This document shows, piece by piece, positions 11,562 to 40,018 of a DNA stretch of 60,945 bases. The DNA lies in NCBI GenBank assembly GCA_032718475.1, contig JAUCBJ010003500.1, forward strand, positions 1-60,945. Direction: 5' to 3'. A program made the position numbers and the translations under genes. Each line of letters starts with the position of its first letter. The stretch's first letter is position 1. The notes beneath the pieces were generated by a model. It was not told where the DNA came from. It saw nothing but the letters and a program-made list of their open reading frames with translations, and made no database searches. The DNA is from Nemertoderma westbladi (taxonomy: Eukaryota > Animalia > Xenacoelomorpha).

Positions 11562-11910
11562 TTCAGAAAGCTTTTGATCAGCAGGGGTTGGATGCACTGT
11601 GGGTAAAAGGGAGATCTTTGGGATTCACTGTTATCGTAAATAAAATAAGACGTAGTTAAGAGTTTGTAAAAAGACTTGTCAAGTGGGTGGTGGGGTATTG
11701 GAAATATACGACTGTTTGCTAGGCGTGTTACAAGGTGACTCATTGCCTTTCACCTATTATATATATTATGTTTTTGAAAGATCTCGAAGCAGAACTTATA
11801 CTGGGTGGGGTTAAAGGGATAACTTTGGACTATGCGAACTGATTCCTTCTACCCTATGCCGACGATTTGGTTACAGAGTTACACAAACTTTACAAAGGGT
11901 TACAAAAACA
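11537..11910 (+). pseudogene. Highly decayed non-LTR retrotransposon reverse-transcriptase core (motifs 3-5)
   Basis: Manual translation across frameshifts and stops: KLYSGFVDFQKAFD..DALWVKGRSLGF..IRRS*EFVKRLVK / YDCLLGVLQGDSLP / DLEAELILGGVKGITLDYAN*FLLPYADDLV..KGLQ. Three RT motifs in the correct order and spacing. Confidence 0.85.
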
Positions 11911-14900
11911 CAAACTTTATTTAAACTTCAGTTTATAATAATTTACCGGGTTGGGTTGCCTTTTGTTATACAAACTTTATTTAAACTTCAGTTTATAATA
12001 ATTTACCGGGTTTGGTTGCCTTTGGTTACACAAACTTTATTTAAACTTCAGTTTATAATAATTTACAGGGTTGGGTTGCCTTTGGTTACACTAACTTTAT
12101 TTAAACTTCAGTTTATAATAATTTACCTGGTTGGGTTGCCTTTGGTTACACAAACTTTATTTAAACTTCAGTTTATAATAATTTACCTGGTTGGGTTGCC
12201 TTTGGTTACACAAACTTTATTTAAACTTCAGTTTATAATAATTTACCTGGTTGGGTTGCCTTTGGTTAAACAAACTTTATTTCAACTTCAGTTCATAATA
12301 ATGTACCGAATTGGGTTGCCTTTGGTTACACAAACTTTATTTAAACTTCAGTTCATAATAATTTACCGGGTTGGGTTGCCTTTGGTTACACAAACTTATT
12401 TAAACTTCAGTTTATAATAATTTTCCTGGTTGGGTTGCCTTTGGTTAAACAAACTTTATTTCAACTTCAGTTCATAATAATGTACCGAATTGGGTTGCCT
12501 TTGGTTACACAAACTTTATTTAAACTTCAGTTCATAATAATTTACCGGGTTGGGTTGCCTTTGGTTACACAAACTTTATTTAAACTTCAGTTCATAATAA
12601 TTTACCTGGTTGGGTTGCCTTTGGTTACACAAACTTTATTTAAACTTCAGTTTATAATAATTTACGTGGTTGGGTTGGCTTTGGTTACACAAACTTTATT
12701 TAAACTTCAATTTATAATAATTTACCAGGTTTGGTTGCCTTTGGTTACACAAACTTTATTTAAACTTCAGTTTATAATAATTTACCGGGTTTGGTTGCCT
12801 TTGGTTACACAAACTTTATTTAAACTTCAGTTTATAATAATTTACCGGGTTTGGTTGCCTTTGGTTACACAAACTTTATTTAAACTTCAGTTTATAATAA
12901 TTTACCGGGTTTGGTTGCCTTTGGTTACACAAACTTTATTTAAACTTCAGTTTATAATAATTTACCGGGTTTGGTTGCCTTTGGTTACACAAACTTTATT
13001 TAAACTTCAGTTTATAATAATTTACCGGGTTTCGTTGCCTTTGGTTATACAAACTTTATTTAAACTTCAGTTTCTAATAATTTACCGGATTTGGTTGCCT
13101 TTGGTTACACAAACTTTATTTAAACTTCAGTTCATAATAATTTACCGCGTTGGGTTGCCTTTGATTACAAAAACTTTATTTAAACTTCAGTTCATAATAA
13201 TTTACCGGGTTTGGTTGCCTTTGGTTACACAAACTTTATTTAAACTTCAGTTTATAATAATTTACCGGGTTTGGTTGCCTTTGGTTACACAAACTTTATT
13301 TAAACTTCAGTTTATAATAATTTACCGGGTTTGGTTGCCTTTGGTTACACAAACTTTATTTAAACTTCAGTTTATAATAATTTACCGGGTTTGGTTGCCT
13401 TTGGTTACACAAACTTTATTTAAACTTCAGTTTATAATAATTTACCGGGTTTCGTTGCCTTTGGTTATACAAACTTTATTTAAACTTCAGTTTCTAATAA
13501 TTTACCGGATTTGGTTGCCTTTGGTTACACAAACTTTATTTAAACTTCAGTTCATAATAATTTACCGCGTTGGGTTGCCTTTGGTTACAAAAACTTTATT
13601 TAAACTTCAGTTCATAATAATTTACCGGGTTGGGTTGCCTTTGGTTACACAAACTTTATTTAAACTTCAGTTTATAATAATTTACCTGGTTGGGTTGCCT
13701 TTGGTTACACAAACTTTATTTAAACTTCATTTCATAATAATTTACCGGGTTTGGTTGCCTTTGGTTACACAAACTTTATTTAAACTTCAGTTTATAATAA
13801 TTTACCTCGTTGGGTTGCCTTTGGTTACACAAACGTTATTTATACTTCAGTTCACAATAATGTACCGAATTGGGTTGCCTTTGGTTACACAAACTTTATT
13901 TAAACTTCAGTTTATAATAATTTACCGGGTTTGGTTGCCTTTGGTTACACAAACTTTATTTAAACTTCAGTTTATAACAATTTACCGGGTTTGGTTGCCT
14001 TTGGTTACACAAACTTTATTTAAACTTCAGTTTATAACAATTTACCGGGTTTGGTTGCCTTTGGTTACACAAACTTTATTTAAACTTCAGTTTATAACAA
14101 TTTACCGGGTTTGGTTGCCTTTGGTTACACAAACTTTATTTTTAACTTCAGTTTATAATAATTTACCGGGTTTGGTTGCCTTTGGTTATACAAACTTTAT
14201 TTAAACTTCAGTTTCTAATAATTTACCGGGTTTGGTTGCCTTTGGTTACACAAACTTTATTTAAACTTCAGTTCATAATAATTTACCGAATTGGGTTGCC
14301 TTTGGTTACACAAACTTTATTTAAACTTCATTTCATAATAATTTACCGGGTTGGGTTGCCTTTGGTTACATAAACTTTATTTAAACTTCAGTTCATAATA
14401 ATTTACCTGGTTGGGTTGCCTTTGGTTACACAAACTTTATTTAAACTTCAATTTATAATAGTTTACCTGGTTGGGTTGCCTTTGGTTACACAAACTTTAT
14501 TTAAACTAATTTACCGAATTGGGTTGCCTTTGGTTACACAAACTTTATTTAAACTTCAGTTCATAATAATTTACCGGGTTTGGTTGCCTTTGGTTACACA
14601 AACTTTATTTAAACTTCAGTTTATAATAATTTACCTGGTTGGGTTGCCTTTGGTTAAACAAACTTTATTTAAAGTTAAGTTTATAATAATTTACCGGGTT
14701 AGGTTGCCTTTGGTTACACAAACTTTATTTAAACTTCAGTTTATAATAATTTACCAGGTTTGGTTGCCTTTGGTTATACAAACTTTATTTAAACTTCAGT
14801 TTATAATAATTTACCGGGTTTGGATGCCTTTGGTTACACAAACTTTATTTAATCTTCAGTTCGTAATAATTTACCGGGTTGGGTTGCCTTTGGTTACACA

Positions 14901-16317
14901 AACTTTATTTAAACTTCAGTTCATAATAATTTACCGGGTTGGGTTGACTTTGGTTACACAAACTTTATTTAAACTTCAGTTTATAATAATTTACCTGGTT
15001 GGGTTGCCTTTGGTTACACAAACTTTATTTAAACTTCAGTTTATAATAATTTACGTGGTTGGGTTGCCTTTGGTTACACAAACTTTATTTAAACTTCAGT
15101 TCATAATAATTTACCGGGTTGGGTTGCCTTTGGTTACACAGACTTTATTTAAACTTCAGTTTATAATAATTTACCTGGTTGGGTTGTCTTTGGTTACACA
15201 AACTTTATTTAAACTTCAGTTCATAATAATTTACCGGGTTGGGTTGCCTTTGGTTACACAAACTTTATTTAAACTTCAGTTTATAATAATTTACCGGGTT
15301 GGGTTGCCTTTGGTTACACAAACTTTATTTAAACTTCAGTTCATAATAATTTACCTGGTTGGGTTGCCTTTGGTTACACAAACTTTATTTAAACTTAAAT
15401 TTATAATAATTTACCTGGTTGGGTTGCCTTTGGTTATACAAACTTTATTTAAACTAATTTACCGAATTGGGTTGCCTTTGGTTACACAAACTTTATTTAA
15501 ACTTCAGTTCATAATAATTTACCGGGTTTGGTTGCCTTTGGTTACACAAACTTTATTTAACTTCAGTTTATAATAATTTACCTGGTTGGGTTGCCTTTGG
15601 TTAAACAAACTTTATTTAAACTTCAGTTTATAATAATTTACCGGGTTTGGTTGCCTTTGGTTACACAAACTTTATTTAAACTTCAGTTTATAATAATTTA
15701 CTGGGTTTGGTTGCCTTTGGTTACACAAACTTTATTTAAACTTCAGTTTATAATAATTTACCGGGTTTGGTTGCCTTTGTTTACATAAACTTTATTTAAA
15801 CTTCAGTTTATAATAATTTACTGGTTTTGGTTGCCTTTGGTTACACAAAATTTATTTAAACTTCAGTTTATAATAATTTACGTGGTTGGGTTGCCTTTGG
15901 TTACACAAACTTTATTTAAACTTCAATTTATAATAATTTACCTGGTTGGGTTGCCTTTGGTTACACAAACTTTATTTAAGTTCAGTTCATAATAATTTAC
16001 CGGGTTGGGTTGCCTTTGTTTACACAAACTTTATTTAAACTTCAGTTTATAATAATTTACCGGGTTGGGTTGCCTTTGGTTACACTAACTTTATTTAAAC
16101 TTCAGTTTATAATAATTTACCTGGTTGGGTTGCCTTTGGTTATACAAACTTTATTTAAACTTCAGATTATAATAATTTACCTGGTTGGGTTGCCTTTGGT
16201 TACACAAACTATATTTAAACTTCAGTTCATAATAATTTACCTGGTTAGGTTGCCTTTGGTTACACAAACTTTATTTAAACTTCAGTTTATAATAATTTAC
16301 GTGGTTGGGTTGCCTTT

Positions 16318-18489
16318 TTAATTTAATTTAATTTAATTTCATACACAAACAAACAAAATATAGTTTGGTACACCGTAATTAATGTGCACAAATCGACCAC
16401 CTAAACTATAAAATAACAAAAGCACAGACTGAAACAGAAACAAGACAAAATATTGGTAATATGTAAGTGTATTAAACCCTAACCAACAAACTAAGAGAAG
16501 AATCATGCAGTGGCAGCAAAATTTATAATATTATCTAGTTCAAGAGAATCAAAACCGGGAACACTAGCGTTATTTAACCGACAATTAATAAGTTCTTGTA
16601 ACAAAGGAACCCGCCATTCATTACCAACAGGCACATGTGCATAACTCAAACTATTAGCAAACCTTGGGACCAGAGAACGTAAATTATATATGTTACACCG
16701 GTTACCAATATTTCGTAAATTTGTGCCCGAACGTGTCCTACAATCAAAAACGCACAGTTCAGCCAAAAATCGTATAATACGTTTATTAGATGTGAGTAAA
16801 GAGTTAACAAATTTAACATAACGAGTTTGCAACATTACGCACGGATGCTTAAAAGGTACCAAATTCTCTACAATAAATCTATGTGTATTGTAAGGTAATC
16901 TGAATATTAATCTAATATTAATATTCCACGATGTATAAATTCTAGATGTACTGTCTGAAAAAAGGTCCCATAGATTACTCCCAAAAAGACAAGTTGCGTA
17001 AATCCGCTGGATATCGCACAATAAATAAGGATCAGAAAAATAAAACTCTTGTCTTAGTGCATTTAATTTACCTATTAATTGGCCGCGTTTTTTCAGTACA
17101 TCAGACACCATACTATTGCGAAAATCAAAAACATGCCCCAAATGAACTGCCTCACGAACCCATGGCAAATCGTGACCATTTAAATGTATTCTGGCAGCAG
17201 GTTCCCTCCAACGCGTCGAGTTGCTGAATGCAATACATTTCGATTTAGACTTCTCTGGAGTTACATTTGTACTGAAAACTAAATCATTATCTTGTGCAAA
17301 TCTTTCGCATAATGAAACCATAAACTGAAGGCCGCACAGAGATGGGCACAGCAAGAAAATATCATCCGCGTATGCTAGTGCACCCAAGAAATAAGTGCCT
17401 ATCCAGCATCCTACACCTGCCTCTCGCAGACGCACAAGGAGCGAGTTGAGAAGAATGCAAAACAGAATTGGCGAGGCCACAGATCCCTGTTTTACACCAT
17501 TAGAAATACCGAAAGGAGACGATAAAGTTTCATTCCAACGGACACAACAGGATTGATTGGAATATATCCACAGTAGGGTACGTAGGAATAACGGAGAGAA
17601 ACCCTTTTTGATCAGTTCCAAGAATAGTTTACACCACTCGACCATATCGAATGCCTTTGTGAGGTCAAGTAGACTCCCATATACTGGTGTATTGTACCTG
17701 GAGTAATGACCAATCACCTCTGAGGCCACCCACGAGCACTGGCTTGTCCCCGTACCAGACTGAAAACCGAACTGCAGCTCATCCAATGAAAGGCATTCAG
17801 ATTGTGACAGCAACATTACCCATTCAAATAGTTTGATTAACAATGATGACAAAGCTATTGCACGGTAGTTACTAGAGACGGCTTGATCACCCAGCTTATC
17901 TTTAATTAAAGGTAATATAACGCAAGTCAGAAGAAATTGAGGTACAAAACCATGAACAAGAAACAAGTTAAATAACCTAACTAATTGCTCTCTAAATTCC
18001 GGGCCCGCATTGATTAAGCAGTCCGAATCAAATCCAAAGGCTACATCTGTCTTAGAACTTTTAAGCTTATTCATAGCCTCCCAAACTAGCTCTGAAGTTA
18101 TAAGCGGCAATGCATCCCTATCACAACTGTCCAATTTCTCATGAATCTGCTGCCGTAAACCTTCCAAATTTGAGTTATAAGGTTGATTAAACAATGTGGA
18201 GTAAATTGAAGCAAAGCGATCAGCTATTGACTGTGAGTCAACACAGTCATCTATTCTAGAACTAACTACAGGCGACACCCGACGCAGCTTCTTAATCTCC
18301 TCGAATATCTGATGATTGTTTCTCAAACAGGCTTGCAGTAATTTGTCTCGCTGAATGTTATCAGAAGCGCGTTTCAACCGTCGCACAGCATATTTAAACT
18401 GAGCTCTTGTAACTCTACGCATATGAAATAGATGTGCATTTTGAGAAACATTCGGACACCCAGCAGACACCCAGACACTATGCCAACAA
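16318..18489 (-). mobile_element. 5'-truncated non-LTR retrotransposon (LINE) inserted in the 60-bp satellite; clade not resolved
   Basis: Uninterrupted RT ORF, about 165-nt 3'UTR and an (AAATT)n tail at 16318-16339. No TSD; about 4 bp (GGTT) of the monomer is missing at the junction. Confidence 0.95.
16503..18489 (-). CDS. LINE ORF2 reverse transcriptase, N-terminally truncated (no endonuclease domain)
   Basis: Motifs NYRAIALSS, QFGF, LDLTKAFD, GVKQGSVASP, YADD and HLG in the 655-aa ORF, with no internal stops. Confidence 0.92.
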
Positions 18490-21400
18490 ACACAAACTTT
18501 ATTTAAACTTCAGTTTATAATAATTTACCTGGTTGGGTTGCCTTTGGTTACACAAACTTTATTTAAACTTCAGTTTATAATAATTTACCTGGTTGGGTTG
18601 CCTTTGGTTACACAAACTTTATTTAAACTTCAGTTTATAATAATTTACCTGGTTGGGTTGCCTTTGGTTACACAAACTTTATTTAAACTTCAGTTCATAA
18701 TTATTTACCTGGTTAGGTTGCCTTTGGTTACACAAACTTTATTTAAACTTTAGTTTTTAATAATTTACCTGGTTGGGTTGCCTTTGGTTACACAAACTTT
18801 ATTTAAACTTCAGTTTATAATAATTTACCTGGTTGGGTTGCCTTTGGTTACACAAACTTTATTTAAACTTCCATTCATAATAATTTACCTGGTTAGGTTG
18901 CCTTTGGTTACACAAACTTTATTTAAACTTGAGTTTATAATAATTTACCTGGTTGGGTTGCCTTTGGTTACACAAACTTTATTTAAACTTCAGTTTATAA
19001 TAATTTACCGGGTTGGGTTGCCTTTGTTTACACAAACTTTATTTAAACTTCAGTTTATAATAATTTACCGGGTTGGGTTGCCTTTGGTTACACTAACTTT
19101 ATTTAAACTTCAGTTTATAATAATTTACCTGGTTGGGTTGCCTTTGGTTACACAAACTTTATTTAAACTTCAGTTCATAATAATTTACCTGGTTAGGTTG
19201 CCTTTGGTTACACAAACTTTATTTAAACTTCAGTTTATAATAATTTACGTGGTTGGGTTGCCTTTTGTTACACAAACTTTATTTAAACTTCAGTTTATAA
19301 TAATTTACCGGGTTGGGTTGCCTTTGGTTACACTAACTTTATTTAAACTTCAGTTTATAATAATTTACCTGGTTGGGTTGCCTTTGGTTACACAAACTTT
19401 ATTTAAACTTCAGTTTATAATAATTTACGTGGTTGGATTGCCTTTGGTTAAACAAACTTTATTTAAACTTCAATTTATATGTAATAATTTACCTGGTTGG
19501 GTTGCCTTTGGTTACACAAACTTTATTTAAACTAATTTACCGAATTGGGTTGCCTTTGGTTAAACAAACTTTATTTAAACTTCAGTTCATAATGATTTAC
19601 CGGGTTTGGTTGCCTTTGGTTACACAAATTTTATTTAAACTTCAGTTTATAATAATTTACCGGGTTGGGTTGCCTTTGGTTACACTAACTTTATTTAAAC
19701 TTCAGTTTATAATAATTTACCTGGTTGGATTGCCTTTGGTTACACAAACTTTATTTAAACTTCAGTTTATAATAATTTACGTGGTTGGGTTGCCTTTGGT
19801 TACACAAACTTTATTTAAACTTCAGTTTATAATAATTTACCTGGTTGGGTTGCCTTTGGTTACACAAACTTTATTTAAACTTCAGTTTATAATAATTTAC
19901 CTGGTTGGGTTGCCTTTGGTTACACAAACTTTATTTAAACTTCAGTTTATAATAATTTACCTGGTTGGGTTGCCTTTGGTTACACAAACTTTATTTAAAC
20001 TTCAGTTCATAATTATTTACCTGGTTAGGTTGCCTTTGGTTACACAAACTTTATTTAAACTTTAGTTTTTAATAATTTACCTGGTTGGGTTGCCTTTGGT
20101 TACACAAACTTTATTTAAACCTCAGTTTATAATAATTTACCTGGTTGGGTTGCCTTTGTTTACACAAACTTTATTTAAACTTCCGTTCATAATAATTTAC
20201 CTGGTTGGGTTGCCTTTGGTTACACAAACTTTATTTAAACTTCAGTTTATAATAATTTACCGGGTTGGGTTGCCTTTGTTTACACAAACTATATTTATAC
20301 TTCAGTTTATAATAATTTACCGGGTTGGGTTGCCTTTGGTTACACTAACTTTATTTAAACTTCAGTTTATAATAATTTACCTGGTTGGGTTGCCTTTGGT
20401 TACACAAACTTTATTTAAACTTCAGTTCATAATAATTTACCTGGTTAGGTTGCCTTTGGTTACACAAACTTTATTTAAACTTCAGTTTATAATAATTTAC
20501 CTGGTTGGATTGCCTTTGGTTACACAAACTTTATTTAAACTTCAGTTTATAATAATTTACGTGGTTGGGTTGCCTTTGGTTACACAAACTTTATTTAAAC
20601 TAATTTACCGAATTGGGTTGCCTTTGGTTACACAAACTTTATTTAAACTTCAGTTTATAATCATTTACCGGGTTGGGTTGCCTTTGGTTACACTAACTTT
20701 ATTTAAACTTCAGTTCATAATAATTTACCGGGTTGGGTTGCCTTTGGTTACACTAACTTTATTTAAACTTCAGTTCATAATAATTTACCTGGTTAGGTTG
20801 CCTTTGGTTACACAAACTTTATTTAAACTTCAGTTTATAATAATTTACCTGGTTGGATTGCCTTTGGTTACACAAACTTTATTTAAACTTCAGTTTATAA
20901 TAATTTACGTGGTTGGGTTGCCTTTGGTTACACAAACTTTATTTAAACTTCAATTTATATGTAATAATTTACCTGGTTGGGTTGCCTTTGGTTACACAAA
21001 CTTTATTTAAACTAATTTACCGAATTGGGTTGCCTTTGGTTAAACAAACTTTATTTAAACTTCAGTTTATAATCATTTACCGGGTTGGGTTGCCTTTGGT
21101 TACACTAACTTTATTTAAACTTCAGTTCATAATAATTTACCGGGTTGGGTTGCCTTTGGTTACACAAACTTTATTTAAACTAATTTACCGAATTGGGTTG
21201 CCTTTGGTTACACAAACTTTATTTAAACTTCAGTTTATAATCGTTTACCGGGTTGGGTTGCCTTTGGTTACACTAACTTTATTTAAACTTCAGTTCATAA
21301 TAATTTACCGGGTTGGGTTGCCTTTGGTTACACTAACTTTATTTAAACTTCAGTTCATAATAATTTACCTGGTTAGGTTGCCTTTGGTTACACAAACTTT

Positions 21401-26156: not shown

Positions 26157-26701
26157 TGTGACGGGATCCAGATGGGATCCCGGTTTATCCGGTTTTGTCA
26201 GTTCACGCGTCCCCGCCGTGTGTGAAGAGTAAAAGAGTTTCGGTTGTTCGACGTGTATAATGTTTGGGTATATGGATATAGATACGGTATAATGGTGGAT
26301 AAAGTTATTGCATATGGAAGGCGGGAGACGGTAATTGAAATCCCGGTACTTCCCTAACTAAACTATTGTAAGCTACAGTAACACCAGTAACTAGCACTGA
26401 GATAACTGAACTGATATGATTACAGGTTACTGGTTATATTGCACGGTGGCCTTATTGCTACTCAATCGATGCCTTTCCCCCCTCCTGATTGGTTGGTACC
26501 CTTGTTGGTGCCCTTTGGAGTGTTCCCGTTCACTCCACCTGTTCTCTCTGGGTTAGGGGTTTGGCCCCTGACCCTCATTGTGTGTTTCCTTCCCATTTTT
26601 ATTGGGATGGCACGAGTTGGTTAATTACCCAATCTCGTGGCTCCCAATATTGCTTATCGGCTTAACTTTATGGGGTGTTAGCGGGATTGAATAAGCTAAC
26701 A
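26157..26701 (-). repeat. 3' LTR (545 bp)
   Basis: Direct repeat of 37981-38525; 3 substitutions seen. Confidence 0.97.
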
Positions 26702-26710
26702 CTCCCCCCC
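26702..26710 (-). other. Polypurine tract (GGGGGGGAG) abutting the 3' LTR
   Basis: Purine run immediately upstream of the TG of the 3' LTR on the sense strand. Confidence 0.9.
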
Positions 26711-27345
26711 ATGCTATCTTCCCGGTAAGAAGATAGCATCAACCAAAAAAGTGCGCTACAATCCCGCTGGATCCCGATCTAGTATCGGGTGTGGGGTGGA
26801 ATTCTTTTCTCTCGGAGCCGGCTTTCCAGGCCGCTCCCTATGGGTATGATAACGCTACCCTGTGTGCCTGGCGTCTCATGTCGGGCCGATCGCGCTCACC
26901 TCTCACACGATTTTTGTTTCCCCAACACTTTCGCCCTATCTCTTCTCCACTCTCACCCTAACTCTCGCACACCCTCGGACCTCCTCGTCCCTCACTCAGC
27001 CTCTTATTCCTCCCCCTCCACACTAGAATTGCATCTGCACTCTCTCCGCGCTTCGCACTCTCACTCCGTCCCTCAACCCCACTTTGACTACCTCATCCCT
27101 TCTGACGAATCTCACCCCCCTCCCATGCCGTCGCACTCAAGAAGTGTGAAATCGTCTGGTGTCTCGTCCATAGTGCCATAGTCAGTTTACCTCCCAGTCC
27201 CAGTAGGTAATTGAGAAAGGTTGTATGACTATAGTACTTACTCCGAACGTATATATTTGTAGATTACTGATTGCTACGTACGTACATACAAATTGTACTT
27301 ATATGATTATTCACATTAATTAAATTTGTACATAGTTCGCACGTC

Positions 27346-28426
27346 TCACGTGGCGCCTTCCAGGCGCACTACATCAAAGCCCCAGTCCATCCCTCCTTGG
27401 CGTCCGTGGTGTCCCCGAAAGTTGCACTTCGGATATCGGTTCTGTAACCGTGGACACGCTCCCATCCTGTGGCTCGTCTCGTCGCAGTAGAGACAGCTGG
27501 TCCCTTTCTGGAACCGGTACAAGCAGCTCCTTTCCTGGTGGGTCTGTCTCCCACAGTAGCCGCAACCGAGTACCAATGTCTCCCGCCCCACATCGTCTTT
27601 CATCCCAAGCGATCTCCGCGGTCTGTGGAGTCGCTGATAGGCGAATTTCTCCACGTTAGCGTCTCTGTCTACGTCGATCTCTCCGCCCCTCTTGGGCATC
27701 GTCTCCCCGAATACTACCCGTGGTGCCGTCCCCGGTTGCTTGCCCAACCTGATAGTGCTCCCCGCTAAATCCATCGCCGGCTCCTTGTGCACCCAGGCCC
27801 GCTTGCCGGGTTTGTCCCAGAAGGCTCTCGCCCCACTGGTCGTCACCACCCTCCCGCCAACCCAGTCCGTGTCCGAGTGGCCTATCCTCTCGATGGGCGG
27901 CATCTCTCCGAACTCGTCGTCGTCCTCGTCCTCCTCTCGCAGTGGTTCCAACCCCGGTATCCCGGTGGACCCACTATGTTCCTTTCCACCTTGGTTCCTG
28001 CCCGTAACTCTCCATTCCTCAAGCTCCCCTAGCCTCTTTTGCGGTTGGTCGCCCTCGGCGCCCGCTGGTGTGGGAATCGCTTGCAATCCCGACGTCGACT
28101 GTTTCAGTGATCCCACCGTCCACCCTAGTTCTTTCCCTAGAGACTCCCCCGAACTCCCTGACGAAGCCCAACGAAGTTCGTCTAAGGCTGCTTGTTCCTC
28201 GAAGCCGTAGCTCTGCGCCCTAGCTTCCTCCTCCCTCTCCTCTGCTTCTCTCCTCTCTCACAAGTTTGCCTGCCATCTCGAACTCTGCCCGATCGCTCAC
28301 CCGTAAGTGGTGCCTTGCCAAGGCGCAAACGTGATGAGTGATGGGTTTAGGTGGTTTAAGCTCAGTTCGATGGCCTATCTCTTTCTGAATTTTCGAGTTA
28401 TTGCCTATTCTTACTACTGTTACCAT
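27346..28426 (-). CDS. Additional ORF of the BEL/Pao element (about 360 aa if one frameshift near 28255 is repaired), with C-terminal CX2CX4HX4C zinc knuckles
   Basis: CGYCGRQTHQERSC, CLYCDETSHRMGAC and a degenerate third (YPKCNFRGHH). The frame is open from 28257 to 27346. The upstream 68-aa ATG ORF joins it through a (GA)n tract. Confidence 0.65.
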
Positions 28427-28689
28427 AATTTGTTCCCCTTCTTAGCCCTATTCTTATTCTAACTTTATTTTGATTTAATTTCAATCCTACTACCCTACTG
28501 CTTCCTATTGATTATTCTATTCCCTAATCCACATTCTGGCCTACTCTGTGGGCCTATGCGGTACAGCAGTGTGCGTCGCGTGGCCACACGATTTACCCAG
28601 CTGTACTCATATGCCCCCCTCTCGCTACTAACACTACTAACTGCTAACTAATATCTATATCTTACATACCCTTCTACCTCTTACTCTTT

Positions 28690-29175
28690 CTCTAACTAAC
28701 GGTACTACGTACCCTCTAACTCTCTACCTAACGGTACTACGTACCCTCTAACTCCAACTCTTCTCTAACTAACGGTACTACGTACCCTCTAACTCTAACT
28801 CTTCTCTAACTAACGGTACTACGTACCCTCTAACTCTCTAACTAACTAGTGGTACTACGTACCCTCTAACTCTCTAACTAACTAGTGGTACTACGTACCC
28901 TCTAACTCTAACTCTTCTCTAACTAACGGTACTACGTACCCTCTAACACTAACTCTTCTCTAACTAACGGTACTACGTACCCTCTAACTCTCTAACTAAC
29001 TAGTGGTACTACGTACCCTCTAACTCTCTAACTAACTAGTGGTACTACGTACCCTCTAACTCTAACTCTTCTCTAACTAACGGTACTACATACCCTCTAA
29101 CTCTCTAACTAACTAGTGGTACTACGTACCCTCTAACTCTAACTAACTAGTGGTACTACGTACCCTCTAACTCTA
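28690..29175. repeat. 13 tandem units (32-41 bp), each containing GGTAC-TAC-GTACC, between pol and the extra ORF
   Basis: Core at 28701, 28733, 28774, 28815, 28851, 28887, 28928, 28969, 29005, 29041, 29082, 29118 and 29152, separated by CTAA/CTCT-rich spacers. Confidence 0.95.
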
Positions 29176-29326
29176 CCTTCTGCCTACTAACTGCGTACCT
29201 ACCATGTACTATTATTTTATTTTATTTTATTTTTATTTTTTATTTTGTTTGTGGGAAGGGCGTCTCGCCCTCAATCCCACCCCCCTCAGTCCAAAACTTG
29301 GACGACTAAACTTTTCTTTAACTCTA

Positions 29327-32300
29327 CTAAGGTGCCCCTTCTAACAGACAGCATTTGCCTACAGCTCTCCTGTAGGTTTTTCTGTCCTTCGCAGCTATCT
29401 TTCCACCTATCCGCACTTCTACCGATCGGACTCTTCCGTCCTCGTCGGAGTAGGTGCCTACAACTCTCGCCAACCGCCATTGGTTGTTGATGATAGTATC
29501 ATCCGTAACGATTACGAGATCTCCCTCTCTTAACTCCCTATTCGGCTTCCTCCACCTGCTTCTTTTATGGAGTGTGGGTAGGTATTCCTCGACCCACCTC
29601 CTCCAATACTCTGCGCTAATTGCTTTGGCGACTTTCCAACTTTGGCGGGAGTGTATGTCGTCTGGATCTACACCCCGCATGTCGATGGTCGCTGGCCTTT
29701 CCATCAGGAAATGGCTAGGCGTCAGCACGTCTAGTGACTCAGGGTCATCATTCTCCGGGTATAGCGGTCTGCTATTAATGATCCCCTCGCACTTCGCAAG
29801 CACCGTCCGTAAGACGTCTTCTGTGACCATGTGGGTGTTCATTAGCTTCGTCATTAGACGCTTTGAACTGCCCACCAGTCTCTCGACGCATCCTAGTGTA
29901 TGTGGTGCATACGGCGTCCTCCTCTCCCACTTTACTTGTCGTCTTCTCATGGCTGCCCTGACTTCTTCTCCCTCCAAGATGTCCAATGCCTCTGCCATCT
30001 CATTCTCTGCGCCCACAAAGTTGGTGCCGTTGTCGCTGTATATCACTGCGATCGTCCCACCTTTGCGGTCCCTAAACCTTTCTAAGGCATTAATGAATGC
30101 TGATGCGGTTGCATCTTGGGCGAGTTCTATCCCTACCGCCCGTGTGTTGTTGCATACGAAGATAATGCCGTAGCGTTTCTCCGTGTGTCGCATCACTTTG
30201 ATCTTTATCGGCCCGAACATGTCCACACCGCAATGCGTAAATGGCGGGTCGTGCTGTCTTACCCTACTCGCCGGTAGTGGCGCCATCTCCTGTACGGCTC
30301 GCTCCTTCTTCGCTCGTCGGCAGGTCTGGCACTGCCCCACTACCGCTTTTACCTTCTTCCTCAATTGTTTGACCCAATAGGTCCTCCTTATCTCTGTGAG
30401 GGTTCGGTTGGTGCCCCCATGCAATATGGATTTGTGGGAGTCCCATATAATCTGATGGACTATCGGCGATCCTGTAGGAATGATGATGGGTTTCGGTGGT
30501 ACGACTATGCTGTTGTTGTATCCCACCCTAGAATTCATTACTAGAATCCCCTCGTCATTGAGTTGTGGCGACAGCGTAATCAGCTCGCTGTCCCGTCGGA
30601 GGTGCTGTTGGTTACCGACGCGTTCCATCTCGTCGCCGTAGTTCTTCCATTGTTCATAGCGGATCACTGCCTTGGCCACTCCTTCCAGATCTATGGTTGT
30701 CCTGGTCTTCTTGTCCTTACCAACTCCCGCAAGGAAATTCCCGAAGGCTCTCCAGTACGCCACTAGTTTCTTGGTCTTATACCAACTAGAACTGTAACTG
30801 AGGAGTTTATCTGTCGGATTATCGCACAGTTCTCGTCCTGGTTGCACGTCCCTAATCTCCCTCACCATCTGGGAGTATATCTCTTCTCCCTCTGAATCGC
30901 CCTCTTCTCCTTCTGATACCACTTCTGAGCCCGGGTCCACCCTTCTCATCGGCGGCCAGGCCTCCTTATCGCTCAGAAATTGTGGCCCATGCTGCCACAA
31001 TACTTCCTTCTTCAGGAAAGTGTGGCGTTCTACGCCCCTCGACAGCAAGTCCGCTGGGTTCTCGTCTGTTGGGCAGTAGTGCCACCTTTCCAGTTCTGTG
31101 GTCGCCCTTATTTCGTCCACTCTATTTGCGACGAATATCGGGTATCTCGTCCTTTCGTTATGTAGCCAACCAAGCACTACCATGGAGTCCGTCCAGTAGT
31201 GTGTCTCCACTATGTTGGGAATAGTATCCACTAGGTAGGCTGTGGCTCTAACTCCTAGTCTCGCAGCTGTCAATTCTAACTTGGGAACTGATGCTGAATC
31301 TGGCGGCGTTGACTTTGCTTTACTAAAGGCTAGTCTGGGCTTATGAGCCCCCTCTCGATGTACTAAATAGAGTGCCGCTCCGTACGCCTCCAACGACGTA
31401 TCGGAGAACATGTGTAGGTCCAGACTCGTCATGTTCCCATCCGGGAAATACACTCGAGGCATGTTGTATGTTCCCATCTTCTCCAAGTCTCTTGTCCACT
31501 TGCTCCACTGTTTCTTGATTTCCTCTGGTACCTCTACGTCCCACTCATCCTTCAATTTGTATACTCTCTTGAGTATCTGTTTCCCCGTGACTAATAATGG
31601 GGATGCTAGGCCTAGGGGATCGTATATCCTTGCTATATACGATACATAGCCCCTCTTCGTGTGGATGCCTGCGCCCTCCTGGCTCAGCTGATACTTCAGT
31701 TCATCTGTCTCTCTATCCCACACGATTCCCAATGCCTTCTGTTGAGATTATGTTCTCTTAATCGCCATGTCCTGCCCTTTGGCTGTTGTGGGATTATCCA
31801 TGCTCGATTCTGGTCTCCTGTCCTCTATCGCCTTGATAAATTCTTCCGAACTGGATTGGAATTTGGTCAGGTTAAAGCCGGATCCTTTTAGGATGTCGCG
31901 AACCTCGCGCCCTGTGTCCAGTATCTCCTTAACCGTATTTCCAGACTCCATTCCGTCGTCTACGTAGAAGCCGCGTCGAATCATATCGACGGCTCTACTG
32001 CTGTATCTATCTTCCTTCCCCTTCACTGTGTCTCTCACTGCCATAGTCGTCGTAAATGAAGACGACTTGGCCCCCATGTTTTGTACTACCATCTTATATG
32101 CTGGTATTATCGGCGGTTCTTCCTCGCCGTTATACCATAAGAAGCGCTGACTGTCGCTATCTTCTTCCGTTACACGGACTTGGTTGAACATGCCTTCTAT
32201 GTCACACGTGAAGGCGTGTTTCCCATTTCTAAATCTAAGTAGGACCTCTATGCCCGAGTTGTATATGTTTGGGCCTTCTAACAGGTAATCGTTTAAGCGT

Positions 32301-33397
32301 TTTCCGTCTGTCTTTGCTGATGCGTCGACTACCATCCGTAGTTTACCTTTCTTTGGGTCTAAAGCCACGTGTAGTGGCAGGTAATACGTCCTGTCTGTGT
32401 TCGGCTCGTCGACCGGTAACTCCACGGCCCATCCTTTCTCGACGTACTTTTTAATTGTTCTGTGGATGTACTCATTCTTCTCGGGGCTCCGTTTTAGTGT
32501 TTGTTTCAGCTTGCGGAGTCTCGTGAGTACCATCCCCCTATTGTCGGGCAGCGGTATCTTCGGTAGTTTCCATACCATTCCTATAGTATACCGCCCCTCA
32601 TCGCATGTCATCGATTCCTCCACGCTTTGTAAAGCCTGCTTGTCTTCCACCGAGGTCCCGACCCCGGTTTCTTTCAGTCCCTCGAAATCATGTCTGAGCA
32701 GTCTTTTAAGCTGCTCCTCTGCCCCCTCGTCACCCATTTCCTGCATTGTTCCCGCGAACATGCATCCTGATGTCTCCGACATCCTAAATGGTATCTTGCT
32801 CTTAATTGGACCACTCAGCGTCCACCCGAATGGTGTTAATATGGCCACCGGGTCACTCTGCTTGTCTTCGCCGAAGACCGTTTGCATTCTTTCGTGGGCC
32901 GTTGGGCAGTCCATGCCTACTATGATGGACACCTTCCTAACGTCCACGTCTGGGATTGAGAAGTCAATGTCGTCCAGGAATTTATACTGCTCGACCTCGA
33001 TGTTGGTTGGCCGCCTGGCATTGATATTAATTGACTCTATCACTTGGATGGGGTCGATGGTTGCCCCATAGTCGCATCCTGGTGCCACTGCTGCAATTGC
33101 GCACCGTCCTGTTCTCATCTCCAGGATCACATCTTTGCTAGAGATGGTTGTTACCGCCATTCTGCTTGGCCTCGTTCTCAATCCTATCTCTTCGGCCACC
33201 CATTCTTCGATTAATGTGAAGGCAGCTCCACTATCAACCAGCATTAATGTTGTTATTGATCGATTGCCTTCCCCAATCACTCGCATGGGTACTACTCCAA
33301 GTAGCACCGTTCCTCTCTTCTTCGCCCCTACTGTGCTCGTCGCCATTGTTTGGCCTCTCCTTTGACCAAACTTGACCGGCTTCTCCTGTCCACTCAT
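29327..33397 (-). pseudogene. pol: BEL/Pao pol (aspartic protease, RT, RNase H, integrase) with one in-frame TAA at 31748-31750
   Basis: LVDSGA protease; FYVDD RT; Pao RNase H; H..H/CX2C, DMFGP, SDNGTNF and E integrase. The 549-aa and 801-aa ORFs are in the same frame, separated only by the stop. Confidence 0.93.
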
Positions 33398-36300
33398 TCA
33401 TGTCCACTCATTACACATCGTGAGCAGATTTTGTTGCTGAACGCATAATCTATCTGATCTTGCCTAGGTAGCGCCTGCCAGTACCTGCAGTTCATGGTTT
33501 GATGAAGCGCATTTGCGTGTAGCTGGCATTTGCTCTTTGGGTCGTAGCCCTCTTCATAAAGCGCATTGCGTATCGCAGTTGCGTTTGTACCAAAGTCCCT
33601 ACTATTCTTATTGTTTGGATTCGGCCTATTGGACGTACTGGGGTTATGTTTATTCGTGTTGTTATTGTTCCCCTGTCCGTTCCATGGTGTGGTCTCATCT
33701 TCGGCTAGCTGTGGACTTGCAGTCCCCTGCGTCGCTGCATATGGCAATGATTGCCTGAGTCTCGGTAATGCGTTTGATGTATTGTGCTCTGGTTTCGGTC
33801 TATGGTAGTCTATCTTCGGTCCCTTTCCCAGGCTATCTTCACTATAGACTGGGTCAGTTATTAGCTCAGCCTCGTAGTTTAAGAAGTTTGACATTTCTTC
33901 TAAACCCGGTTCCGCACCCTTTTGTCTCGAGTGGAGAAAGCAATTTTCCTCCACTTGTTGCGCATCCAACTCGGTAGTGCCTGTGCTATCGTGGTGATGT
34001 TATTGGACGCATTGAGCTCGTATGGTGCGTCTAGCGTCTTCAGCACGATCAGCGCCTTTTCGACTTTGTTAGCGAACGTCTTAATGCTAACGGGATTATC
34101 CTGTAGGCCACCCGATGTTATGCCCCTCAGCGTCTGCCTGATGATCTTGGCCGGGTGCCCGTATTCCCTATCCAGTGCCCGCCATGCTGTCGTGAAGCCG
34201 CCCTCTATTCCTTGATATTGCCTCACGATATCGTATGCTGGGCCTCCCGTATATACTTGCAGATATTTTAGGCACTCCGCCTGCGTCAAGTTTTTTGTTA
34301 GTATTTCGTTACTATACATGCGCCGAAACTGTAGATATTCTTCCGGCCTACTCCCATCGAATTTGAATGGTTCCACGGGTGGTAGCTCGTTCCTCGTTTT
34401 CAACGCATCGATCAGCGTGGCCATCCCCATCGCCTGCGCTTCCAATGGATTCGACGGGTGCTGTATAGTTTCTCCTGTCTGGTGCGGTTCATCCGTCCTA
34501 TTTCTTGATCTTCTCTGACTTGGGTATGTCATCGGGGGTAGCGGCCCCCTCCATATTTCTGTGTCACACGACCTGTTTTCATCTAAGGGTCTCGTTGTTC
34601 TTGCTCCTATCGGGGTATATTGTTGATATTGTGATGGGGGAATGTCACCCTGTCCCCCCCCCCCCCCCCCCCGCCGGTATGTTTGGTAATGGGGTTGATG
34701 TTAATATGTTGGGGCCCATACACCTATCCGCAATAATTCCCCCCTCCCCTGGGTATATGTTATGTCCCTGCATGCTGTAGTCATACTGCTGTACTGGTAC
34801 CGGTATAGGCCTATCAGCTTCTGGCCTACTCGCCGGTATGTATTCCGCGACTTCCGGGTTTAATCCCGTTGTCCGCGCCATCCTATCCCCTACATTGCCT
34901 CTCTCAGTATGGCCTATGGTATGTGCAGTAAGGCCTACAGTATGTCCTACAGTCTGCATGTGTTGTTCGGGATCGAAGTTTATTCTTCTCGAATAATCCT
35001 CCCCGCGGCTACCGTATTCTCGATCGATAGGTGTATTCCGTCGGAAAGTTTCTCTTCGACCCCCCCCCTCTACTGTTCTCATCTTCGTACCGGTACATCG
35101 CGTACCCCTCTCTCGGCGCGTAGTGCGCCTCACCGGGTCGCATCTCTCCGGGGCGATGGCAATCTCCCGGAGTCCGACCCCACTGACTCTCTGTTCTCAT
35201 CTCGACCACCGACGGCTCGCTATCCGTCCTCGCTCTTCTATCGTTCGCGGCGATACCTCTACTACTATCTTCTCTTCTTCTCCTTTCAGTGGAGTATTCC
35301 CGCTCGTGAGATCTCTCGTCGACCTCCTGGTTAAACCCCACTGTTCTTCTTCCCTCTTCTGATCGGGCTCGACGCTTTGTCCGCCCTCTCACGACGTCAA
35401 CCTGTCTCTCTCTGCTCGGTCGCACGCCGCTGGGGATACTCGCAATCCCCCTATTACTTTCCGTCGCCGGTTGTTGCGGTTTACCTATTTCGGCCCGCGC
35501 ATTATCCGCTGACGGCTGTGGGACACTCTCTGCCCCCCCCCCCCTTTCGCCGCTAACTCGCTGTTGTGGGGCCCCTGTAGCCCCCCCCCCCTTTCGCCAC
35601 ATCTAACTTCGCTATCCCTCACCCCGCTACTATATCCCTCTCTAGTCGACACATCAACCCTACCGCGGTCGGGTCTATTCACCCCCGCCTCTCCCTCTGC
35701 TATTGCGTGGCCTACCAGGCCCTCTGCACCCTGCCTACCAACTATGTGGCCTACCAGGCCCTCGCTGGGTCTATTCAACCCAGCCACCCCCTGCCTACCA
35801 ACTACGTGGCCTACCAGGCCCTCGCTCGGTCTACCTAATCCAGCTACTCCCTGCCTACTAACTGTGTGGCCTACCAGGCCCTCGCTGGGTCTATTCAACC
35901 CAGCCTCTTCCTGCCTACCAACTACGTGGCCTACCAGGCCCTCGCTGGGTCTACCTAACCCAGCTACTTCTGGCCCACCAACTGCATGACCTACCAGGCC
36001 CCCGTTTGTCTGGCTATACACGCCCGACGTGTTTACGTTAATAGCACCCATATTGGAACCAGAATTAATTTGTTCCTTCGAAATAAAATCATTTGAATTA
36101 TTTTGTGCGACTACACTATCTGAATTATTTTGTAAATTCGGGCTCAGATTATTATTTAGATTATTTGGATTATTTTGGGGATTATTTTGCGTAGCTACAT
36201 TAATATTAGAATTATTTTCTACATTAATATTAGGATTGTTCTGATTTAAATTTAAATTACTATCACTAGGTAAATTATTTCCTGCAATAAAGGTTTGATT

Positions 36301-37938
36301 AGAATTATCCCATACGGTACTATTAATATTAACCACGTCTACTGTACCATTATCATTATTACCCCCCCCGCCCGTACGGTTACACCAGTTTTGGGTCTGT
36401 CGTGCGGTCCCTGTAAGTGGGGTATTAATAAATGTATCCACGGCCCCTGGCTCCCCTAGAATACTCGAGCCAGTCCCGCTCTCAGACGTCCCCGCCCGCA
36501 CCAGTTGCAGCTCGTGCATGCGTCTAATCCTATGTTCCCCAAGCTCACTTTGGCGTCTCTTTAGTTCCTTTTGCTCTCGCTCAGCTTCTACCATTCTCCT
36601 CTCACATTCCCGCGCGTCCCGCTGAGCCAGCTCTGCTATTTTTCTAGTGCTCTCCCTTCGCCTCGCTTCACGCTCCTTACGTTCACTTTCCTTTCTCGCC
36701 TCATACTCCTTGCGTTCCGCCTCACGCTCCCTGCGTTCCCTTTCCTCTCTCGCCTCACGCTCCTTGCGTTCCCTTTCCTCTCTCGCCTCACGCTCCCTAC
36801 ACTCCTTTTCCTCTATTTCCTCATACTCCCTAAGGCTTCTCAAAGCCCTTTCGGCCTTCTCTCCGGTTTCTCTAATCAATGCCGCTCCCCTCTCTAGCCG
36901 CATTCTCCCCTCCTCCAGCCGTTCACCCATTTCCTTCTGACCTTGCTCTATCAGCTCGAGACGGTACGCGGCACCTACCTCTCTCACCCGTCTTCCTTTC
37001 GCGGAGGATGTAGCAGACTTATCGGTTATGACGGACTCCCTCCGCCTTCCCGATCTACTATCTTTCCCCCGCTTCCCGGAACTTCCTCTGACCGACGAGG
37101 CCGAATCCTCGGGGTTAACCTCGGATTCGCCCCCTTCAGGTCCCCTCCAGCCCACTAATTTTACTCCCCGGGCATCGACCAAGTATGGCCCTATGTACAC
37201 TGACGCTACGCTAGGTTCCATACTCCCACATTCCCATAGTTCGAGCAGTTCATTGGCAACCCCTTTCGCTCTCTCCTCGGCTAGTTCTCTCTGCCCAAAA
37301 CGCATTAGGTAATTAAAGTGTCTATCCGACTCACCTAGTCGTTTCCTCAGTCTCACCTCATCTATCTTCGCCCCTTCCTTCTTAGCGTCCTTTAGTAGTC
37401 TCTGGGTCGCGTTGTAGGCCCGTCGAAGTCGATCAGAAACCCCGACGTCCTCGTCGCCGACCTCTCTTCCATCTCTCCGGGTCCGACGTCGTACCGGCGG
37501 CCCCACCGTCGCCATTCCGGCGGGCCGTCCGTCACCCTCGGCCTGTGGCTGGCCGGCGACATCGGTACCGATATTTCTTTCGTCTCTCTGCGTCCGGGGC
37601 CGCACCGTCGGCCCCACCGTCGCCGTTTCGGTGGGCCGCTCGTCGCCCTCGGCCTGTGGCTGGCCGGCGACATCGGTGCGCCGACCCCCGTCCTGTGTCG
37701 ACTCATCTCCTTCTCCCTCCGTCTCGCTCTCTCTTCCTCTCGGCTCGACCTCGGGTTCCAGGCCCCCCCCCCCATCCTGAACTGCCGGATGACCCGTTAC
37801 CGATGGGTCCGGCGTTGTGGGCCTGTATCGCCTGGTTGCGGCCTCGCAGATCGTTAATTCTTCTTCGTCCGGGGTCCGCGTCGGCGTTGTCTCTCCCGAC
37901 TGACTCATCTCGTTTGGTGATTGGTTGTTGGTAGTCAC
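33394..37938 (-). pseudogene. gag: BEL/Pao gag (about 1500 codons) broken by frameshifts near 35585, 35064, 34660 and 33920
   Basis: DUF1759-like segment ELPPVEPFKFDG...; knuckles CQLH..HQTMNC and CSRCVMSGH; long low-complexity N-terminal part. The frameshifts coincide with homopolymer runs. Confidence 0.85.
35707..36000 (-). repeat. In-frame 60-bp (20-aa) repeats in gag (GLxRPSEGLVGHxVGRQGVA), about 5 copies
   Basis: TGGCCTACCAGGCCCTC recurs every 60 bp. Confidence 0.9.
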
Positions 37939-37971
37939 TGAGTTTTAGTTAGTTAGGGCGGCAGCTCTGAG

Positions 37972-37980
37972 TTCAATTAC
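37972..37980 (-). other. PBS position: GTAATTGAA (non-TGG), complementary to 38155-38163 inside the 5' LTR
   Basis: Plus strand TTCAATTAC at 37972-37980 abuts the LTR; GTAATTGAA occurs at 38155-38163. Confidence 0.6.
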
Positions 37981-38525
37981 TGTGATGGGATCCAGATGGG
38001 ATCCCGGTTTATCCGGTTTTGTCAGTTCACGCGTCCCCGCCGTGTGTGAAGAGTAAAAGAGTTTCGGTTGTTCGACGTGTATAATGTTTGGGTATATGGA
38101 TATAGATACGGTATAATGGTGGATAAAGTTATTGCATATGGAAGGCGGGAGACGGTAATTGAAATCCCGGTACTTCCCTAACTAAACTATTGTAAGCTAC
38201 AGTAACACCAGTAACTAGCACTGAGATAACTGAACTGATATGATTACAGGTTACTGGTTATATTGCACGGTGGCCTTATTGCTACTCAATCGATGCCTTT
38301 CCCCCCTCCTGATTGGTTGGTACCCTTGTTGGCGCCCTTTGGAGTGTTCCCGTTCACTCCACCTGTTCTCTCTGGGTTAGGGGTTTGGCCCCTGACCCTC
38401 ATTGTGTGTTTCCTTCCCATTTTTATTGGGATGGCACGAGTTGGTTAAGTACCCAATCTCGTGGCTCCCAATATTGCTTATCGGCTTAACTTTATGGGGT
38501 GTTAGCGGGATTGAATAAGCTAACA
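37981..38525 (-). repeat. 5' LTR (545 bp)
   Basis: Direct repeat of 26157-26701 with TG/CA termini. Confidence 0.97.
38228..38262 (-). promoter_or_regulatory. Putative LTR core promoter: TATAA followed by tandem TCAGTT initiators
   Basis: Minus strand CAATATAACC...ATCAGTTCAGTT. The TATA starts 26 and 31 nt upstream of the two Inr adenines (38236, 38231). Confidence 0.5.
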
Positions 38526-39228
38526 CTTCAGTTTATAATAATTTACCAGGTTGGGTTGCCTTTGGTTACACTAACTTTATTTAAACTTCAGTTTATAATA
38601 ATTTACGTGGTTGGGTTGCCTTTGGTTACACAAACTTTATTTAAACTTCAATTTATATGTAATAATTTACCTGGTTGGGTTGCCTTTGGTTACACAAACT
38701 TTATTTAAACTAATTTACCGAATTGGGTTGCCTTTGGTTAAACAAACTTTATTTAAACTTCAGTTTATAATAATTTACCTGGTTGGGTTGCCTTTGGTTA
38801 AACAAACTTTATTTAAACTTCAGTTTATAATAATTTACTGGGTTTTTGTTGCCTTTGGTTACACAAACTTTATTTAAACTTCAGTTTATAATAATTTACC
38901 GGGTTTGGTTGCCTTTGGTTACACAAACTTTATTTAAACTTCAGTTTATAATAATTTACCGGGTTTGGTTGCCTTTGGTTACACAAACTTTATTTAAACT
39001 TCAGTTTATAATAATTTACCGGGTTTGGTTGCCTTTGGTTACACAAACTTTATTTAAACTTCAGTTCATAATAATTTACCGGGTTGGGTTGCCTTTGGTT
39101 ACACAAACTTTATTTAAACTTCAGTTCATAATAATTTACCGGGTTGGGTTGCCTTTGGTTACATAAACTTTATTTAAACTTCAGTTTATAATAATTTACC
39201 GGGTTGGGTTGCCTTTGGTTACACAAAC

Positions 39229-39234
39229 TTTATT
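39229..39234 (-). terminator. First AATAAA poly(A) signal downstream of the FReD gene stop, followed by GU-rich GTTTGTGT; repeated in almost every satellite monomer
   Basis: Minus strand TTTAAATAAAGTTTGTGT about 45 nt after the TAA. Confidence 0.7.
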
Positions 39235-39278
39235 TAAACGTCAGTTCATAATAATTTACCGGGTTGGGTTGCCTTTGG

Positions 39279-40018
39279 TTACACAAACTTAACTTTCATT
39301 TCAACCTTAACCGCGGGATCGTTACTGTTACCAACACACCAGTGTATACCTTCATTATCGTCTAATCCGTGTATTCCATTAAGATTTGAACATTGGCATT
39401 TGCGGCTTTGTTTGGTTTTGTACCACCATCCACCGCCTCCATCAGTAGTTAAACATGTCATCGATTCGATATCAGCTGATCCCTTTGCATAAAAAGGTGT
39501 TTCATGAAGACCATCTTGAATAATCATAGCATCGCCAGCATCTCCAAGGTAATCCTTGATATCTAAACTGAAAGCATTTCCTGATACTTTAAATTCTGAA
39601 TATTTTGCGTATTTCATTACCTCCAGTACACCGTCACTGTCGTCGTCCCACCACAGGTCAATCCGCAGCTGCGCCGTCCCTTGTTGAGTCAGTAGACGTA
39701 TCTTTTCCAATCCGAGCCAGTAATTCTTATCCGCCTTTCCGAAACCCGCGAGGTACTCACTGTAATCGCGATCGAAGATTTCAGATGCATCAACCCTGCG
39801 CTGTATAATCAACCAGGGTTCACCCTCAGTAGTGCGGTCGCATCTGACTTTGTTACCATCGTTGGTTAGACCGTAGGTGTCGTCATTAATTATATCTGTC
39901 TTCGCATTGTAGCATGGGTTTACTTTCAGCGGATCATACACAGTCGTGGTGGTGGGTGCGATGGTGGTTTTGGGTGTGGTATCTTTAGTCGGAATAGTTT
40001 CGGGTACGACTGTTGTAC
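39279..40018 (-). CDS. Terminal exon: Thr-rich linker plus fibrinogen C-terminal (FReD) domain
   Basis: VRCD..WLIIQRR..GFG..YWLGLEKI..LRIDL..GDAGD..GGWWY..C.SNLNG..GIHW..EMK. Acceptor AATATTTCAG at 40028-40019, phase 1; stop TAA at 39281-39279. Confidence 0.92.

What the first reader, a model, noticed from the sequence alone, without database searches (positions are those of the whole stretch)
11908..39290. A satellite made of a gene's own stop codon, 3'UTR and poly(A) signal (about 215 tandem terminators)
The FReD ORF ends ...GTT AAG TTT GTG TAA, and these codons (KFV*) are the first bases of the array on the minus strand. Each monomer is AAGTTTGTG-TAA, about 45 nt of UTR, AATAAA, then GU-rich GTTTGTGT. 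Both array ends finish in the same 10-nt microhomology (plus strand ACACAAACTT at 11908-11917 and 39281-39290), which explains the founding duplication. The gene now has a ladder of potential poly(A) sites every 60 nt. This could give length-variable 3'UTRs, fail-safe termination that shields the downstream sense-oriented LTR and LINE from read-through, or repeat-derived small RNAs matching the mRNA end (all inference).
Basis: partly seen in the sequence, partly recalled or inferred. Interest (0 to 1): 0.85.

Follow-up and report, generated by a model that had tools for sequence, protein, structure and literature searches.

The report
Satellite grown from a gene's end
In an unidentified animal, 60 bases holding the last codons, stop codon and a poly(A)-signal-like word of a lectin-type gene are repeated 215 times in a row, likely as a harmless runaway repeat rather than a selected stack of terminators, because the spare signals are no better conserved than their neighbours.

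Summary
The array is real: 215 units of 60 bp, 12.8 kb in three pieces, split by a LINE and a young Bel/Pao LTR element. Unit 1 encodes the last three residues and the stop of a fibrinogen-domain gene. Its first codon gives the basic residue kept in 119 of 120 homologues, so the unit likely came from the gene.

The functional reading is weak. AATAAA (208 copies) is no more conserved than other A/T columns (p 0.31-0.41). Both retroelements landed in a pre-existing array, so it was not built to shield them. The far end abuts a truncated LINE reverse-transcriptase fragment through a scrambled junction, so the '10-nt founding microhomology' is unproven. The neighbouring 31-bp satellite is made of codons of that fragment, an internal control for unselected amplification.

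One public run assembles as gene plus about 2.5 units. That is either an allele roughly 100-fold shorter or RNA ending in the first units; this is unresolved. The closest known kind is the lancelet 'mirage' minisatellites, here at the stop/3'UTR boundary. No run on record as RNA was listed.

The parts
39231..39290 (-). Unit 1 of the array: codons K-F-V, stop TAA (39281-39279), 44 nt, first four bases of AATAAA (hexamer 39234-39229)
38526..39290 (-). Gene-proximal array piece, about 12.8 units, 12 AATAAA
18490..26156 (-). Middle array piece, about 128 units, with block duplications
11908..16317 (-). Distal array piece, about 73.5 units; 18 units repeat a block of the middle piece
39279..40018 (-). 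Predicted last exon of the gene: Thr/Pro stalk end plus Fibrinogen_C domain (E 1.5e-30)
   Evidence: splice site predicted, not shown
43630..44110 (-). Predicted first coding exon: ATG, one hydrophobic segment (residues 16-34), Thr/Pro-rich stalk; joined model 406 aa, no internal stop
   Evidence: predicted
26157..38525 (-). Bel/Pao LTR retrotransposon inserted in unit 13; LTRs 26157-26701 and 37981-38525, 542 of 545 identical; target duplication CTTCA; gag-pol interrupted by stops
16318..18489 (-). 5'-truncated LINE (RVT_1, E 4e-20) with a 5-nt-repeat tail; 4 nt of the unit lost, no target duplication
11534..11908 (+). Decayed, 3'-truncated LINE reverse-transcriptase fragment (KLY...YADD...GLQK) forming the distal flank; 11866-11904 holds 10-, 15- and 7-nt exact pieces of the 60-bp unit
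4..11561 (+). Separate 31-bp satellite (at least 373 copies, runs off the window) whose last unit encodes the KLYSGFVD residues of the RT fragment: internal control

Best explanation
The array is a tandem repeat of the gene's last three codons, stop codon and short 3' UTR, likely amplified in place by unselected slippage and unequal exchange and likely tolerated because only the first stop codon is read. Shown: unit 1 is coding sequence of an intact-looking fibrinogen-domain gene; the units differ by 5.8% on average and grew in blocks; a LINE and an LTR element inserted later; the far end is joined to a truncated LINE fragment. Inferred: a small local duplication seeded the array; selection pins it at the coding edge while ignoring copy number; the mRNA ends after one of the first few AATAAA copies, so most of the 208 copies are never reached; the distal junction is a later repair join, not the founding scar. 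It works like a lancelet 'mirage' minisatellite, but at the coding/3'UTR boundary.
For: K/R at this position in 119 of 120 homologues, and 109 of 120 end 3-9 residues after the conserved M (ours 5); only 7 of 120 phase/strand joins of the unit would give K/R plus a near stop. Exon contigs run 29-30 nt into unit 1 in two other samples, 0 other letters over 790 and 839 nt. The hexamer is no more conserved than 35 other A/T columns (distinct alleles 0.50 vs 0.71 per column, p 0.41; units p 0.31), and the idle TAA in units 2-215 is invariant too. Target duplication lies inside a unit and variants are shared across the LTR. The adjacent 31-bp satellite was amplified from dead RT codons. Mirages are reported not to disturb the mRNA and to vary in length (PMC3087553, passages).
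Against: No RNA evidence for where the mRNA ends. The conservation test has little power (6 columns, young array), and the hexamer window is among the less variable ones (9 of 60 windows have as few alleles). The pre-duplication state was not seen, and 7 of 120 is about 6%, so capture of the gene end by a foreign repeat is not excluded. With no genome held, other loci could not be searched.
Confidence: 0.68

Rival explanations
1. Neutral origin, real consequence: each AATAAA is weak, so transcripts end in a 60-nt ladder over the first few units, and copy number changes 3' UTR length or termination efficiency.
For: 208 hexamers in 215 units, most units also with a TGTA word. The four unit contigs of run X3 have exactly the lengths given by gene + majority unit + variant unit + at least 30 nt. 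If that run is RNA, this means read-through of the first signal.
Against: X3 is labelled DNA? and its exon contig runs 32 nt past the predicted acceptor with no splice joint. A two-step ladder ending at a CA 24 nt after the hexamer gave other contig lengths than observed. There is no excess conservation.
Confidence: 0.17
2. A satellite from elsewhere replaced the gene's 3' end, and the protein borrowed its last three codons and stop from the repeat.
For: 46 of 120 phase/strand joins give a stop within 1-7 codons and 7 of 120 also start with K/R. AATAAA arises in 16% of shuffles of the unit. One contig in X5 has depth 9433 against 26.8 for the exon, above the 130 copies of the commonest 31-mer in the window, which leaves room for other loci.
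Against: The boundary falls exactly on the conserved basic codon. In X3 the laid unit contigs are only 0.6-1.8 times the exon depth. No look-alike in earlier scanned windows (an index of notes, weak).
Confidence: 0.07
3. The array is a selected terminator or insulator block that keeps transcription out of downstream elements or yields small RNAs against the mRNA end.
For: Sense orientation of both insertions; high retention of AATAAA.
Against: The insertions post-date the array and 196 of 208 hexamers lie beyond the LTR. The 5' LTR sits between gene and element, and the LTR has its own AATAAA. There is no inverted copy of the unit in the window and no unusual RNA fold (z 0.32).
Confidence: 0.05

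Closest known systems
Amphioxus 'mirage' minisatellites (globins BflGb6/BflGb9, Adh3, troponin C, PGBD5); PMC3087553 abstract and 7 passages, PMC3902484 one passage
   Same: Tandem copies of a short unit that straddles a functional gene boundary; one terminal copy is the authentic gene sequence; unit 10-160 bp; reported length-unstable and harmless to the mRNA.
   Different: Mirages span exon-intron junctions and the globin example had 3-6 units. Here the unit spans the stop codon and a poly(A)-signal-like hexamer, has 215 units and carries two transposon insertions.
Exon-edge giant arrays noted elsewhere in this same genome (earlier AI notes; unchecked)
   Same: Hundreds of units amplified from the host gene's own boundary.
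   Different: Those notes concern splice donors and acceptors; none listed concerns a stop codon or poly(A) signal.
Satellites amplified from a piece of a retroelement (recalled, e.g. pea PisTR-A from Ogre; no call)
   Same: Local unique sequence turned into a long array; the 31-bp neighbour here is such a case.
   Different: The 60-bp unit comes from a host protein-coding gene end.
Functional tandem terminators: mouse rDNA Sal boxes, engineered triple-poly(A) stop cassettes (recalled; no call)
   Same: Several termination signals in a row behind a transcription unit.
   Different: Those have a shown function; here the signal is not preferentially conserved and use is unshown.
Human D4Z4/DUX4 (recalled; no call)
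   Same: A tandem array whose edge unit is special for making a polyadenylated mRNA.
   Different: Mirror image: many ORFs and one poly(A) signal there; one ORF and many signals here.

Membership tests
Mirage minisatellites | Unit spans an exon-intron boundary | tested here: not met
   Unit spans the coding/3'UTR boundary
Mirage minisatellites | One terminal unit is the authentic gene sequence | tested here: met
   Unit 1 encodes KFV-stop with the conserved basic residue
Mirage minisatellites | Unit of about 10-160 bp in head-to-tail order | tested here: met
   60 bp, 184 of 215 units exactly 60 nt
Mirage minisatellites | Length varies between alleles | tested here: inconclusive
   X3 contigs fit about 2.5 units, X5 more than the window, but contig depth is not a copy number and X3 may be RNA
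Mirage minisatellites | Mature mRNA is undisturbed | not testable with these tools
   No run on record as RNA
Functional tandem terminator array | Signal conserved above the rest of the unit | tested here: not met
   p 0.31-0.41 against other A/T columns; low power
Functional tandem terminator array | Several copies used as 3' ends | not testable with these tools
   Contigs cannot show RNA ends
Dispersed satellite family inserted at the gene | Unit abundant at unlinked loci | tested here: inconclusive
   No genome; summed depth in X2 about 820-950 times the spacer, inside the 65-2,500 range simulated from the window alone
Dispersed satellite family inserted at the gene | Junction unrelated to the protein's conserved end | tested here: not met
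   Junction on the conserved K/R codon; 7 of 120 by chance

The most novel reading that the evidence does not exclude
A 'poly(A) mirage': a gene-end repeat that ranges from about 2-3 to several hundred copies within one species, with transcripts skipping the first signal and ending in a 60-nt ladder. It would be a natural allelic series for how the number of tandem poly(A) signals sets mRNA ends and Pol II termination, and would show that this genome's amplification at gene boundaries also hits stop codons and poly(A) sites, not only splice sites.
Probability: 0.2. Interest if true: 0.7.

Novelty: new variant of a known kind. Interest (0 to 1): 0.42.

Why it matters
It shows satellite birth from a protein-coding gene end with the seed still in place, next to a second satellite born from dead reverse-transcriptase codons. 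Together they argue that boundary-anchored arrays are a by-product of an amplification-prone genome filtered by selection on the protein. If the short-array reading of run X3 holds, the locus gives a roughly 100-fold natural range in the number of poly(A) signals behind one gene, which makes the effect of signal number on 3'-end choice directly testable.

Tried and rejected
No genome held, so unlinked copies and paralogues could not be searched. Run search: no RNA holder listed; this is no evidence on expression.

Runs X6 and X7 (other organisms) laid nothing on the exon; no proof of absence. X3 gave no cover on the spacer or the 31-bp satellite, nor on 40051-40100. X4, the same sample as X2, also lacked the spacer contig, so records are dropped and these holes prove nothing. 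Loose ends showed only repeat continuation, and even known junctions were not listed, so this does not test for other loci. Summed depth as copy number was rejected: simulation gave 65 to 2,500 per copy for the same array depending on the shortest contig counted.

Pfam on the spacer was below cut-off (RVT_1 E 0.013) and the word-index protein search found nothing; the full HMMER search then found it. I considered that the 60-bp unit derives from the RT fragment; the RT profile alignment stops at GLQK, at the array edge, so this was not supported. RNA fold of three units was unremarkable.

Paper searches for a repeat unit holding a stop codon and poly(A) signal listed 27 papers in all, none on such a case by title or abstract start. 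These were strict all-term searches of open-access text only, so absence from print is not established. No supplements were read.

Full report
Observation. Tandem Repeats Finder gives a 60-bp period at 11908-26156 and 38525-39290. Two counts give 215 units; 184 of 215 are 60 nt, 13 are 48 nt and 7 are 64 nt. There are 88 distinct sequences and the mean pairwise difference is 5.8%. On the minus strand unit 1 starts at 39290 with AAG TTT GTG TAA, the end of an ORF with a Fibrinogen_C domain (E 1.5e-30). AATAAA follows 44 nt after the stop and is formed across the unit junction; 208 copies are intact.

Host gene. A two-exon model (ATG 44110, donor 43630, acceptor 40018) gives 406 residues with no internal stop, one hydrophobic segment at 16-34, a Thr/Pro stalk and the fibrinogen domain. 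The splice sites are predicted only. The best homologues are 27-41% identical animal fibrinogen-related proteins (120 of 501 listed). The last exon is covered with 0 other letters in two other samples, by contigs that run 29-30 nt into unit 1 (short of the 31 letters the tool asks for a bridge).

Did the unit come from the gene? The protein ends EMKVKFV. In the 120 listed homologues the residue three after the conserved M is R in 109 and K in 10, and 109 end 3-9 residues after M. That residue is encoded by the first codon of the array. Of 120 phase and strand joins of the unit, 46 give a stop within 1-7 codons and 7 also begin with K/R. Gene origin is therefore favoured about 17 to 1 over a chance join, but not proven.

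History. The Bel/Pao element (Pfam) has LTRs 542 of 545 identical and a CTTCA target duplication inside unit 13; 7 of 10 distinct proximal units recur beyond it. The LINE removed 4 nt of a unit and interrupts one copy of a block that is intact 93 units away. The array is thus older than both insertions and cannot have arisen to shield them. It grew by block duplication, as minisatellites do.

The far end. The 346 bp between this array and the 31-bp satellite is a decayed LINE reverse-transcriptase fragment on the plus strand: 200 proteins at E up to 0.001, best 1.6e-11; 6 of 6 hits scanned carry RVT_1 above cut-off. A profile of these hits aligns from KLY to GLQK, ending at the array edge. Just inside lie exact 15-, 10- and 7-nt pieces of the unit, whereas no match of 13 nt or more occurs in 16.2 kb of control sequence. 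This looks like a repair junction with templated pieces (inference). The LINE's later 5' junction also breaks at the same 10-mer. The shared 10-mer at both ends is therefore compatible with a founding microhomology but does not show it. If the ancestral sequence after AATA differed, the junction itself created the hexamer; 16% of shuffled units contain one. The spacer is covered with 0 other letters in X2 and X5, joined 30-34 nt into both satellites, so it is not an assembly artefact (X2 is from the sample flagged as a possible source of this DNA).

Internal control. The last unit of the 31-bp satellite reads SKLYSGFVD and continues into FQKAFD of the RT fragment; K-L-Y are the majority residues at those positions in 48-65 of 82 homologues. 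At least 373 copies of dead RT codons sit next door. Earlier AI notes list many giant arrays at exon edges in this genome; I did not check those loci.

Selection on the signal. The six hexamer columns carry 3 distinct changes in 6 units. Other A/T columns average 0.71 alleles against 0.50, G/C columns 1.84. Permutation among A/T columns gives p 0.41 (alleles) and 0.31 (units). The idle stop codon is invariant as well. Apparent conservation is explained by base composition, though power is low.

Other samples. Five runs hold the exon, in three samples; I laid X2-X7 and not X1 or X8. X5 gave 26 unit contigs, the deepest shown 9433 against 26.8 for the exon and 43.3 for the spacer, while the commonest 31-mer occurs 130 times in the window. 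That suggests more units than here. X3 gave the same four unit contigs in both calls (36, 56, 58, 64 nt; depth 17.2, 54.3, 21.3, 27.7; exon 30), although the majority-type words of three of them occur 26-89 times on average in the window. A model of gene, majority unit, variant unit and at least 30 more bases reproduces all four lengths with multiplicity 1, 2, 1, 1; an end at the window's phase does not. The model was fitted afterwards, other orders fit the lengths too, and the tool warns that depth is no copy number. Two readings remain. X3 may be DNA from an individual with 2-4 units and another flank. Or it may be RNA that passes the first hexamer and stops soon after: its assembly holds 85 Mb of non-overlapping sequence against 147-281 Mb for X2, X4 and X5, but its exon contig runs 32 nt into the predicted intron without a joint. 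I cannot decide between them.

Mechanism. Likely a small duplication at the gene end was tolerated because translation stops at the first TAA. Slippage and unequal exchange expanded it, the coding edge pinned one end, transposons landed in it and a deletion joined the other end to a LINE remnant. Cleavage likely occurs after one of the first hexamers; by the recalled 10-30 nt rule this is in the next unit, with that unit's U-rich stretch or the following GU-rich word as downstream element. All RNA-level steps are inferred.

Comparison and verdict. It works like a mirage minisatellite (PMC3087553, passages; PMC3902484, one passage) but fails the exon-intron criterion, so it is a variant, not a member. 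Eight strict searches found no printed animal case with stop codon and poly(A) signal in the unit; earlier AI notes describe small gene-end arrays in giant viruses. The feature is real, striking in size and probably neutral. Interest 0.42.

Noticed in passing
window 4-11561: The 31-bp satellite (at least 373 copies) is built from reverse-transcriptase codons of the adjacent dead LINE fragment; its last unit continues in frame into the FQKAFD motif.
   Followed up: yes
window 11534-11908: A 375-bp LINE RT remnant has a different satellite anchored at each end, one from itself and one from the neighbouring gene; covered without differences in two samples.
   Followed up: partly
window 18490 and 11908: The LINE 5' junction and the distal array end both break at exactly the same phase of the unit, after an A-rich flank; possibly a preferred joining site.
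   Followed up: partly
runs X3 and X5 on window 39195-40100 and 11499-11997: X3 assembles as gene plus about 2.5 units (short allele or RNA); in X5 the spacer contig (43.3) is 1.6 times deeper than the exon contig (26.8), unexplained.
   Followed up: partly
window 48955-51124: 198-nt inverted repeats, 98% complementary, enclose ORF pieces that look like a LINE RT fragment (49302-50450): possibly a LINE piece carried inside a TIR element.
   Followed up: no
window 27346-28257: Extra 303-aa minus-strand ORF with Cys/His motifs between pol and the 3' LTR of the Bel/Pao element, next to a 36-bp internal tandem repeat (28663-29175).
   Followed up: no
window 54664-56408 and 59753-60470: A second inverted-repeat element with one arm region amplified as a 21-bp tandem, and a 46-bp C-rich tandem of 16 copies: more local amplification.
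   Followed up: no
window 39279-44110: The host gene is predicted to be a type II membrane fibrinogen-domain protein with a mucin-like stalk, a topology recalled for FIBCD1; orthology not tested.
   Followed up: partly
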